Source: Escherichia coli
GTDB lineage: Bacteria > Pseudomonadota > Gammaproteobacteria > Enterobacterales > Enterobacteriaceae
Reading direction: 5' to 3' (one strand)
DNA: 64,000 nucleotides
NCBI RefSeq assembly: GCF_013315695.1
Contig: NZ_CP054353.1
The notes beneath the pieces are model-generated. The model saw only the letters and a program-made list of their open reading frames with translations, had not been told where the DNA came from and searched no databases. Positions 58,142-58,489 of this stretch are shown here, piece by piece (within the stretch, counting starts at the first letter, position 1; the number at the start of each line of letters is the position of its first letter). The position numbers were made by a program, and so were the translations under genes.

Positions 58142-58489
58142 GTGAATATGAATTTAAAAAATATAATTTTAAGTACTGTTTTATCAATCGCTAGTTGTCA
58201 TGCCTTGGCTGTAGGTAATTCTCAAATAGCGCTATCTAACCTTCATGTGGAAAACACCCCAAGTGGGACGAAGGCAATTGTGGGTTATGCTGAAAATAAA
58301 TCAAACTCTGTTGTCAAAAATGCTTATGTAAAATTTAATCTTTTAAAAGATGGAGTCGTTATCGGTCAAACAATCGACACAGCATCCAATCTTGAACCAG
58401 GCCAGAAGTGGAAAATACAAGCCTTCATTAACACCTTTAACGGCAGCCCTGACTCATTCAAAGTCACTGAAGTGAAAGTAGTTAACTGA
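58142..58489 (+). CDS. Small secreted protein of unknown function (115 aa)
   Basis: N-terminal signal peptide MNMNLKNIILSTVLSIASCHALA; RBS GAGGTG upstream; AT-rich. Confidence 0.5.
   Translation: MNMNLKNIILSTVLSIASCHALAVGNSQIALSNLHVENTPSGTKAIVGYAENKSNSVVKNAYVKFNLLKDGVVIGQTIDTASNLEPGQKWKIQAFINTFNGSPDSFKVTEVKVVN

What the first reader, a model, noticed from the sequence alone, without database searches (positions are those of the whole stretch)
58142..58489. Small secreted protein of unknown function in the island
A 115 aa ORF with a clear signal peptide and good RBS, AT-rich, isolated between the decayed region and IS remnants. Small exported island proteins are frequently unannotated and can be effectors, immunity proteins or adhesin-associated factors.
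Basis: seen in the sequence. Interest (0 to 1): 0.45.

Follow-up and report, generated by a model that had tools for sequence, protein, structure and literature searches.

The report
Stranded ICE cargo gene: exported FxLYD protein
The ORF is a real, intact gene for a small exported beta-sandwich protein that RefSeq already annotates as "FxLYD domain-containing protein"; it is a leftover piece of a conjugative element stranded in the E. coli pheV pathogenicity island, and its function is still untested.

Summary
The true start is ATG 58148, giving 113 aa, not GTG 58142. The protein has a Sec signal peptide followed by one FxLYD domain (NCBIfam NF038353, E 4e-18). It is full length, not a gene fragment. 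It is identical to RefSeq WP_001049880.1, so it is already annotated.

New here is its origin. Window 57881-58593 is a 713-bp relic of an MPF_G integrative conjugative element (PAPI-1/ICEclc/SPI-7 type). The relic holds the first ~40 codons of the RAQPRD gene, the intergenic promoter region, the intact FxLYD gene and ~100 bp beyond it. In intact elements of four lineages, FxLYD homologues (41-89% identical) sit in the same slot between RAQPRD and TIGR03747/TraD. That slot has been published as a cargo hotspot ("GI-Hotspot 8"). Close relatives have it empty or filled with other genes, so FxLYD is optional cargo, not transfer machinery.

Selection looks purifying: dN/dS is 0.13 against the element allele, and two orphan alleles differ by 4 synonymous and 1 conservative change.

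The fold is a generic Ig-like sandwich with no catalytic hints.

Function is inferred only. My best guess is a non-enzymatic periplasmic binding or "shield" protein of the exclusion or protection type. This is an ordinary finding of low to moderate interest.

The parts
58148..58489 (+). FxLYD-domain protein gene, 113 codons plus stop; identical to RefSeq WP_001049880.1
   Evidence: ORF. RefSeq annotation. NF038353 E 4e-18. ATG conserved while the upstream GTG is not. dN/dS 0.13 against the element allele.
58148..58210 (+). Predicted Sec signal peptide (residues 1-21, cleavage after A-L-A). Residues 14-17 (I-A-S-C) also fit a lipobox, but that Cys is absent in more distant homologues.
   Evidence: Hydropathy. 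Alignments show a conserved AxA site and a non-conserved Cys. AF2 pLDDT <50 for residues 1-23.
58265..58480 (+). FxLYD domain proper. The six-stranded beta-sandwich spans residues 27-112.
   Evidence: NCBIfam match covers profile positions 2-71 of 71. AF2 model has pLDDT 88-96 across the domain.
58139..58144 (+). Shine-Dalgarno GAGGTG; its GAGG core ends 5 nt before ATG 58148
   Evidence: Sequence. Conserved as GAGGTA in the element alleles.
58086..58113 (+). Sigma-70 promoter-like site, TCAACA-16 nt-TAAAAT, 35 nt upstream of the start codon
   Evidence: Consensus scan, 9 of 12 matches. This is weak on its own: 3 sites found against 1.6 expected. Both hexamers are conserved in the lineage-A element alleles. 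Function not shown.
57881..58593 (.). 713-bp relic of an MPF_G integrative conjugative element. About 57881-58067 is element backbone and about 58068-58593 is hotspot cargo.
   Evidence: 84% nucleotide identity to L006-L010 positions 9726-10446, and no other element homology in 55801-60200. Per-segment identities. The same 713-bp extent recurs in many E. coli genomes. Cargo/backbone junction taken from the empty-site alignment.
57855..57980 (-). Truncated 5' end (about 40 codons, the signal-peptide part) of the RAQPRD-family element gene, the first gene of the mating-pair-formation operon
   Evidence: tblastn with the L006 RAQPRD protein: residues 1-41 of 114, 63% identity, E 1e-9. ORF listing.
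57998..58047 (.). Non-coding block conserved across element lineages A, B and D between RAQPRD and the cargo. Probably the regulatory region of the RAQPRD operon; it has no function left in the relic.
   Evidence: Alignment A4. The regulatory role is inferred.

Best explanation
Window 58148-58489 encodes a 113-aa precursor. Its Sec signal peptide is removed, most likely by signal peptidase I after Ala21. This leaves a ~9.9-kDa, Cys-free, basic (pI ~9) single-domain FxLYD beta-sandwich in the periplasm.

The gene did not originate in the pheV pathogenicity island. It is optional cargo of the variable slot between the RAQPRD operon and TIGR03747/TraD in MPF_G integrative conjugative elements (PAPI-1/ICEclc/SPI-7 kind). 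A 713-bp piece of such an element (57881-58593) was stranded in the island, and everything else was lost. The relic carries the gene with its own promoter-like region and ribosome-binding site. The gene has stayed intact under purifying selection.

Mechanism (inferred, not shown). The protein has no enzyme-like features, and its distant relatives are extracytoplasmic protein-binding modules. I therefore propose that it acts stoichiometrically as a periplasmic binding or 'shield' protein. It would protect the carrier cell against something that crosses the envelope, such as an incoming conjugation apparatus or pilus, or a phage. In other words it would be an exclusion-type accessory function that works without the element's own transfer machinery.

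My confidence by step:
- Identity and origin: ~0.9.
- Exported beta-sandwich: ~0.85.
- Still functional or selected: ~0.6.
- Exclusion/protection mechanism: ~0.3.

The overall confidence figure given for this explanation (0.45) is a compromise between the well-supported identity and origin and the weakly supported mechanism.
For: Identity: NF038353 E 4e-18; RefSeq name.

Origin:
- 84% nucleotide match of 57881-58593 to intact elements.
- A RAQPRD 5' fragment lies next to the gene.
- Homologues sit in the same slot in four element lineages and on a Citrobacter plasmid.
- The traD-RAQPRD slot is published as the cargo hotspot 'GI-Hotspot 8', enriched for defence systems (PMC12629846).
- Closely related E. 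coli elements have the slot empty or filled with other genes.

Export: a conserved AxA signal peptide across 34 homologues.

Fold: AF2 pLDDT >88 over residues 31-113, six strands.

Selection:
- dN/dS 0.13 against the element allele.
- Two orphan alleles that share both relic breakpoints differ by 4 synonymous changes plus 1 Val->Ile.
- The gene is annotated intact in about 110 of 5426 complete genomes.
- The exact protein occurs on >=1000 contigs.

Mobile-element association beyond this slot: an Arsenophonus plasmid between trbM/kikA and pilV, the P. aeruginosa MPF_G plasmid pY89, a Pantoea IncFII plasmid, an OLD-nuclease/WYL island, and an integrase/toxin-antitoxin element.

Binding-module analogy: longer FxLYD proteins give sub-threshold DUF3426/DUF2393 hits. 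The DUF3426 domain of ZitP is a periplasmic recruitment domain (PMC5182063).
Against: - No experiment or paper addresses any FxLYD protein.
- There is no hit to defence (PADLOC) families, and only non-significant phage (PHROGs) hits (E >= 0.003, unknown function).
- The purifying-selection signal within orphan copies rests on only 5 substitutions. Gene divergence (1.5%) is no lower than flank divergence (0.85%).
- The promoter call is weak, and expression is untested.
- Being in a defence-enriched hotspot does not make a gene a defence gene. About 70% of hotspot instances have no recognised system.
Confidence: 0.45

Rival explanations
1. It is specifically an entry-exclusion factor of MPF_G conjugative elements. 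A periplasmic protein in a cell that carries the element would block DNA entry from a donor with the same element type. The orphan copy would keep excluding such elements from the host.
For: - It is encoded inside the transfer region, on the opposite strand and with its own promoter, in four element lineages.
- It is among the fastest-diverging genes of the region: 41-50% identity against 60-87% for most transfer genes (two uncharacterised genes, hyp257 and hyp223, diverge as much or more). This is what is expected of a specificity determinant.
- A homologue in an unrelated conjugation system lies between trbM/kikA and pilV.
- It is small and exported, like TrbK or YddJ (this comparison rests on my own knowledge).
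Against: - Element relatives with ~95% identical flanks lack it altogether, or carry unrelated genes in the slot.
- Homologues also occur in non-conjugative islands and elsewhere on plasmids.
- Known exclusion proteins are membrane-anchored (lipoprotein or inner membrane). The lipobox-like Cys here is not conserved.
- A text search for 'entry exclusion' with ICEclc and one review turned up no exclusion system described for this element family.
Confidence: 0.15
2. It is an orphan immunity or inhibitor protein. It would be a periplasmic binder that neutralises a periplasm-acting toxin or lytic enzyme, such as a type VI effector, a bacteriocin or a lysozyme/transglycosylase.
For: - It is a small soluble periplasmic beta-rich protein, fast-evolving, carried on mobile elements, and retained as a solitary gene after its neighbours were lost.
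- The elements encode an SLT transglycosylase nearby.
Against: - No toxin or effector gene is adjacent in any of about ten contexts examined.
- There is no sequence or fold match to known immunity or lysozyme-inhibitor families.
Confidence: 0.12
3. It is a non-functional relic: a short ORF that has simply not yet been hit by a disabling mutation, with no current role in the host.
For: - It lies between frameshifted pseudogenes and IS debris.
- Only 342 bp need to stay intact.
- Nucleotide divergence between orphan alleles is no lower in the gene than in the flanks.
- Some genomes keep only the RAQPRD part of the relic, without the gene (hits H105-H108).
Against: - The substitution pattern between orphan alleles is 4 synonymous to 1 conservative. 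The chance of this is about 0.01-0.03 under neutrality (my binomial estimate).
- The gene is annotated intact in about 110 complete genomes of diverse lineages and hosts.
- The SD and promoter-like hexamers are preserved.
Confidence: 0.2
4. It is an accessory of pilus or T4SS assembly, working like the DUF3426 domain of ZitP, which recruits a pilus-biogenesis factor in the periplasm.
For: - There is a weak family link between FxLYD and DUF3426, and ZitP genetics support that role for DUF3426.
- The gene sits next to the pilus/mating-pair operon, and next to pilV in Arsenophonus.
Against: - It is absent from close element relatives that keep a complete transfer gene set.
- It is conserved after the whole apparatus was lost.
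- The DUF3426 link is below Pfam thresholds and was not seen for the query itself.
Confidence: 0.06
5. It is a virulence or host-interaction factor of uropathogenic E. coli, either a secreted Ig-like protein in the manner of IrmA or a factor associated with the neighbouring P fimbriae.
For: - It lies in a pheV pathogenicity island about 3 kb from papX/papG.
Against: - Sequence identity to IrmA is 8-11% and the match is no better than to the Ig domains of glycosidases.
- Homologues occur in plant-associated, insect-symbiont, environmental and commensal bacteria, on conjugative elements without fimbrial genes.
- The relic also occurs in strain ATCC 8739.
- The adjacency to pap varies with IS content.
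Confidence: 0.04

Closest known systems
NCBIfam NF038353 'FxLYD domain' proteins (RefSeq WP_001049880.1 / WP_001049879.1; UniProt A0A1M2ELA8)
   Same: The full-length domain matches well above the curated cut-off (65 bits against 23). The window protein is identical to a RefSeq entry, and the small signal-peptide-plus-one-domain architecture is shared by most of the 560 family representatives.
   Different: Nothing differs; it is a member. The family has no characterised member and no literature.
Cargo of 'GI-Hotspot 8' (traD to RAQPRD) of PAGI-2/PAGI-3/LESGI-3-type elements (PMC12629846)
   Same: Homologues occupy exactly this slot in Enterobacterales elements. The window keeps the RAQPRD-side boundary of the slot.
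   Different: The hotspot was described in Pseudomonas, mostly with CBASS, restriction-modification and other cytoplasmic defence systems. FxLYD is a solitary periplasmic protein not recognised by PADLOC, and it is not mentioned in that paper or its held supplements. In the window the hotspot no longer exists; only a fragment survives.
DUF3426 (PF11906) / DUF2393 periplasmic domains, e.g. Caulobacter ZitP
   Same: Both are extracytoplasmic beta-sandwich modules. Longer FxLYD proteins with a zinc ribbon and a transmembrane segment give weak DUF3426/DUF2393 hits. DUF3426 of ZitP acts by recruiting a partner protein.
   Different: The query itself gives no DUF3426 hit. It is soluble rather than membrane-anchored, has no zinc-ribbon module, and is carried on mobile elements.
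Entry-exclusion proteins of conjugative elements (TrbK of RP4, Eex of SXT/R391, YddJ of ICEBs1)
   Same: They are small, exported, encoded within transfer regions and fast-diverging. The comparison to the named proteins rests on my own knowledge and on the review PMC5812530 for Eex.
   Different: No sequence similarity was detected. The protein is not membrane-anchored as far as can be judged, it is absent from close element relatives, and no exclusion phenotype has been tested.
IrmA of uropathogenic E. coli (PDB 5ek5)
   Different: Identity is 8-11%. The match is no better than to the Ig domains of glycoside hydrolases, there is no evidence of common descent or of secretion, and the genomic context is different.

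Membership tests
FxLYD domain family (NCBIfam NF038353) | Score above the curated cut-off over the full ~71-position domain model | tested here: met
   65 bits against a cut-off of 23, E 4.1e-18, profile positions 2-71 of 71.
FxLYD domain family (NCBIfam NF038353) | The name-giving F-x-L-Y-D motif | tested here: met
   It is present as F-N-L-L-K-D (residues 63-68). F63, N64 and L65 are invariant in close homologues, and more distant members have F-N-L-Y-D. The Y is replaced by L in the enterobacterial subgroup.
Small exported single-domain FxLYD subfamily | An N-terminal Sec signal peptide with an AxA cleavage site followed by one domain, 105-117 aa in total | tested here: met
   Alignment of 34 members, hydropathy and lengths. 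No dedicated signal-peptide predictor was available.
Cargo of the traD-RAQPRD hotspot of MPF_G conjugative elements | Located between a RAQPRD-family gene and TIGR03747/traD | tested here: inconclusive
   This is met for homologues in intact elements. In the window only the RAQPRD-side boundary survives (57855-57980), and TIGR03747/traD are gone.
Bacterial lipoproteins | A lipobox [LVI][ASTVI][GAS]C at the end of the signal peptide, conserved in orthologues | tested here: not met
   The window allele has I-A-S-C (residues 14-17), but the 89%-identical allele has I-A-C-C, and the 40-50%-identical homologues have no Cys. The AxA site 4 residues downstream is conserved. A lineage-specific lipoprotein form is not excluded.
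Entry-exclusion proteins of conjugative elements | Expression in a recipient lowers acquisition of the cognate element, with specificity matched to a donor T4SS component | not testable with these tools
   This needs mating assays. Indirect evidence is mixed: the gene sits inside the transfer region, but is absent from close relatives.
Known anti-phage defence systems (PADLOC-DB 2.0) | Match to a defence-protein model | tested here: not met
   No hit at E<=1 for the query or for three element-borne homologues.
DUF3426 (PF11906) | Pfam score at or above the gathering threshold | tested here: not met
   The query gives no hit at E<=1. Longer FxLYD proteins reach only 21-24 bits against a cut-off of 27.7.
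   Homologues are 105-117 aa and align from Met1 to the stop. The gene is complete.

The most novel reading that the evidence does not exclude
Small soluble FxLYD proteins could be an unrecognised class of single-gene, periplasm-acting exclusion or protection factors carried by conjugative elements, plasmids and islands. They would block incoming conjugative DNA transfer or phage infection at the envelope. The uropathogenic E. coli pheV island would then keep an orphan copy because it still protects the host.
Probability: 0.15. Interest if true: 0.6.

Novelty: already known. Interest (0 to 1): 0.25.

Why it matters
As it stands this is a routine result: an annotated member of an uncharacterised domain family. 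Two points give it modest value.

First, the pheV island of extraintestinal E. coli contains a precisely delimited 713-bp fragment of an MPF_G conjugative element. This documents past traffic between such elements and the island, and explains why a lone AT-rich gene sits among pseudogenes.

Second, the gene is recurrent cargo on conjugative and other mobile elements. It sits in a slot known to collect conflict genes, and it stays intact after the element is lost. That makes it a cheap and well-defined candidate to screen for exclusion or anti-phage activity. A positive result would give the first function for the FxLYD family.

Tried and rejected
- **Pfam.** Only a sub-threshold SSB_1 hit. NCBIfam also gave a PriB hit far below its cut-off. 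Both were rejected as spurious OB/beta-strand similarity for an exported protein.
- **PDB sequence search.** Nothing significant.
- **PADLOC and PHROGs.** PADLOC returned no families; PHROGs returned only non-significant hits (E >= 0.003) to families of unknown function.
- **Literature.** There are no papers with 'FxLYD' or the RefSeq accessions, and nothing in the supplements of the hotspot paper.
- **Locus scan.** The scan with the broad 34-sequence alignment failed because no stretch was conserved enough. The narrower alignment gave 9 loci.
- **Lipoprotein reading.** Considered because of I-A-S-C, and rejected as the general case because the Cys is not conserved.
- **Core transfer or backbone gene.** Rejected, because close element relatives have the slot empty or filled differently.
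- **Two-gene module with a membrane protein.** Considered because 48%-identical homologues are followed by a 232-aa membrane protein. The window's nearby 238-aa membrane protein is unrelated (BLASTP E 0.046 over 26 residues) and neither has a Pfam family, so this is not supported for the window.
- **Overlapping RNA gene.** No Rfam match overlaps the gene.
- **16-nt inverted repeat** 57757-57772 / 58135-58150. Treated as chance.

Full report
**1. What is in the sequence**

The six-frame listing gives an ORF at 58142-58489 (+), 115 aa, starting at GTG. The sequence reads TTGAGGTGAATATGAAT. The GAGG at 58139-58142 overlaps that GTG and lies 5 nt upstream of ATG 58148.

In the homologous alleles on intact conjugative elements the GTG is GTA, while the ATG and the GAGG are conserved. 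RefSeq annotates the 113-aa product from the ATG as WP_001049880.1. The gene is therefore 58148-58489.

It is 36.5% GC (GC3 31.6%), against 51.2% for the core-genome part of the window (profile).

The N-terminus has a short charged n-region, a hydrophobic core at residues 5-16 and A-L-A|V at residues 19-22. Across 34 homologues the signal-peptide architecture and an Ala-x-Ala-type site are kept. Residues 14-17 (I-A-S-C) also fit a lipobox. That Cys is missing from the homologues at 40-50% identity, and it is I-A-C-C in the 89% allele. I therefore read it as a signal peptidase I substrate, and flag a lipoprotein form as not excluded.

The mature protein would be 92 aa, about 9.9 kDa, pI about 9, with no Cys.

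**2. Family**

Pfam has nothing above threshold. NCBIfam NF038353 'FxLYD_dom' matches the whole domain at 65 bits, against a cut-off of 23. Every RefSeq E. coli genome listed annotates the gene as 'FxLYD domain-containing protein'.

An exhaustive profile search found 560 cluster representatives at E<=1e-3. Most are 105-117 aa with the same signal-peptide-plus-one-domain layout. The ORF is therefore complete and not a fragment of a larger gene.

The AlphaFold2 model is confident over the domain (pLDDT 88-96) and shows a six-stranded beta-sandwich. Fold searches give only generic Ig/FN3-like matches:
- Foldseek against PDB gives E > 1e-3.
- Two uncharacterised phage proteins match in BFVD.

Longer FxLYD proteins, with a zinc ribbon and a transmembrane segment or with TPR repeats, give sub-threshold hits to DUF3426/DUF2393. 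The only studied DUF3426 domain, in Caulobacter ZitP, is a periplasmic domain that recruits CpaM for pilus biogenesis (PMC5182063).

No paper in the library mentions FxLYD or the accessions.

**3. Where the gene comes from**

The window is the E. coli speC-yqgA-tRNA-Phe (pheV) region. It is followed by an island with a P4-type integrase, an IS66-split phosphoethanolamine transferase gene, pseudogenes, IS remnants, papX and pap genes.

The 89%-identical and 45%-identical homologues turned out to lie in intact MPF_G integrative conjugative elements. They are always on the strand opposite to the transfer genes, between the RAQPRD-family gene (the first gene of the RAQPRD-DUF3262-DUF2976-DUF3487-DUF2895-DUF3438-...-TraC cluster) and the TIGR03747/DtrJ-like gene plus TraD. 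Two further lineages (43% and 40% identity), a Salmonella sample with a truncated copy, and a Citrobacter plasmid show the same slot.

BLASTN of window 55801-60200 against these elements gives a single match: 57881-58593 against L006-L010 positions 9726-10446, at 84% identity. Per-segment identities are 89% for the RAQPRD fragment, 82% for the intergenic region, 89% for the gene with no gaps, and 74% downstream. tblastn confirms that 57861-57974 (-) encodes residues 1-41 of the 114-aa RAQPRD protein, and no other element protein has a match anywhere in the window.

So the 'isolated' gene is the centre of a 713-bp relic of such an element. On the left the relic abuts an OmpR-type winged-helix pseudogene (Trans_reg_C). 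On the right it abuts group II intron and IS3 debris.

The same 713-bp extent recurs in many E. coli genomes. It is shared, breakpoints included, with the pheV island of strain BH100N, where 56006-58599 is 99.15% identical although the downstream IS content differs. This points to one ancestral stranding event.

**4. Cargo, not machinery**

The traD-RAQPRD interval has been described as the variable 'GI-Hotspot 8' of PAGI-2/PAGI-3/LESGI-3-type elements. About 29% of its instances hold recognised defence systems, and many hold uncharacterised proteins (PMC12629846).

In complete E. coli genomes, elements with ~95% identical flanks have the slot in different states:
- Empty, with a 253-bp intergenic region (L035).
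- Filled with FxLYD (L006, L037).
- Filled with two unrelated membrane-protein genes (L036).
- Filled with Dabb, DUF2913 or other hypothetical genes.

All of this cargo is on the same strand. Among the rows sampled, only one or two of about 17 intact slots held FxLYD, whereas the orphan relic occurs in about 110 of 5426 complete genomes.

Alignment with the empty site places the backbone/cargo junction at about window 58067. The promoter-like hexamers (58086-58113) belong to the cargo.

FxLYD is more diverged than most of the transfer genes: 41-50% identity between lineages, against 60-87% for those genes. Only two uncharacterised genes of the region are as diverged or more (hyp257 at 35-44% and hyp223 at 47-57%).

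Small FxLYD genes also occur elsewhere on mobile DNA:
- Between trbM/kikA and pilV on an Arsenophonus plasmid.
- After a helicase on the MPF_G plasmid pY89 of P. aeruginosa.
- On a Pantoea IncFII plasmid.
- Next to an integrase and a toxin-antitoxin pair.
- In an island shared by Salmonella diarizonae, Serratia, Citrobacter koseri and others, beside an OLD-family nuclease and a WYL protein. There the gene is followed by a 232-aa membrane protein.

**5. Is it still a working gene?**

Against the lineage-A element allele, dS is 0.42, dN is 0.055 and dN/dS is 0.13.

Between two orphan alleles that share the relic breakpoints there are 5 differences: 4 synonymous and 1 Val->Ile. With about 22-30% of random changes expected to be synonymous, this has a probability of about 0.01-0.03 (my estimate). 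The evidence is thin, and the gene is not less diverged than its flanks.

The SD and the promoter-like hexamers are conserved within lineage A. The exact protein is seen on at least 1000 contigs. Some genomes keep only the RAQPRD part of the relic. Expression could not be tested.

**6. Mechanism**

Shown:
- The product is an FxLYD beta-sandwich with an export signal.
- The gene is optional cargo of mobile elements.
- It has been kept intact as an orphan.

Inferred:
- The protein has no enzyme-like motifs, and its conserved positions are turns and core residues.
- Its distant relatives are extracytoplasmic binding modules.
- It is a solitary gene with its own signals, opposed to the transfer operons.
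- It sits in a slot that collects conflict genes.

From these points I favour a stoichiometric periplasmic binder with an exclusion or protection role, against incoming conjugation machinery, a pilus or a phage. I put this at about 0.3.

The rivals are a strict entry-exclusion factor (0.15), an orphan immunity or inhibitor protein (0.12), a dead relic (0.2), a pilus/T4SS assembly accessory (0.06) and a virulence or adhesin-associated factor (0.04). The evidence for and against each is given in the structured fields. PADLOC gives no support and PHROGs only non-significant hits to families of unknown function.

**7. Verdict**

Its interpretation is only partly right. The gene is already annotated, it is not a fragment, and nothing links it to effectors or adhesins.

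What this analysis adds is provenance: the gene is stranded cargo from a known hotspot of MPF_G conjugative elements. The finding is an already-known family member of unknown function and is of low to moderate interest. Its main use is as a well-defined candidate for a simple exclusion or anti-phage screen.

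Noticed in passing
window 59330-59452 (-): A full-length match to Rfam isrC (RF01387, an Hfq-binding island sRNA): 97 bits against a gathering score of 39, E 8e-23. 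It lies within the IS3-family remnants downstream of the FxLYD gene.
   Followed up: no
window ~51900-55800 (transposase ORF 53689-55227): The island's phosphoethanolamine-transferase gene is split by an IS66-family element (ISEc22). Strain BH100N has it intact and also keeps an adjacent outer-membrane-protein gene that is deleted from the window.
   Followed up: partly
window 57548-57850 (-) and ~56973-57352 (+): An OmpR/PhoB-type winged-helix (Trans_reg_C) fragment and a YeeP-like GTPase fragment, both pseudogenes. They lie immediately left of the conjugative-element relic.
   Followed up: partly
window ~57998-58047: A non-coding block conserved across three element lineages just upstream of the RAQPRD gene (GTGCGTACAGGAT.CGTAAG ... 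GCGATAAAC.CTA). It is probably the control region of the mating-pair-formation operon and is preserved in the relic.
   Followed up: no
L035, L036, L006, L037 (E. coli conjugative elements): The TIGR03747-RAQPRD slot is empty or holds alternative cargo: FxLYD; a 178-aa plus a 71-aa membrane protein; Dabb; DUF2913; or EamA. The cargo always lies on the strand opposite to the transfer genes and is bounded on the right by a conserved hairpin-like sequence.
   Followed up: partly
L011-L016, e.g. L014 6241-12257: FxLYD homologues at 48% identity lie in an island with an OLD-family nuclease (AAA_15 plus OLD TOPRIM), a WYL protein and a YeeP-like GTPase. A 232-aa multi-pass membrane protein with no Pfam family follows 49 bp downstream, so this may be a two-gene unit.
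   Followed up: partly
window 60042-60758 (-): A 238-aa predicted membrane protein with no Pfam family lies between the IS remnants and papX. It is unrelated to the membrane protein paired with FxLYD in other islands.
   Followed up: partly
window 57757-57772 and 58135-58150: A 16-nt inverted repeat, 88% complementary. One arm covers the SD and start codon of the FxLYD gene and the other lies in the winged-helix pseudogene 362 nt upstream. This is probably chance.
   Followed up: no
L020 6001-6410 (sample ERR326681; the protein is named as from Salmonella Typhi in NCBI): In this element the FxLYD gene is truncated to 63 aa. The called Dabb-family gene on the opposite strand overlaps its 3' end.
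   Followed up: no
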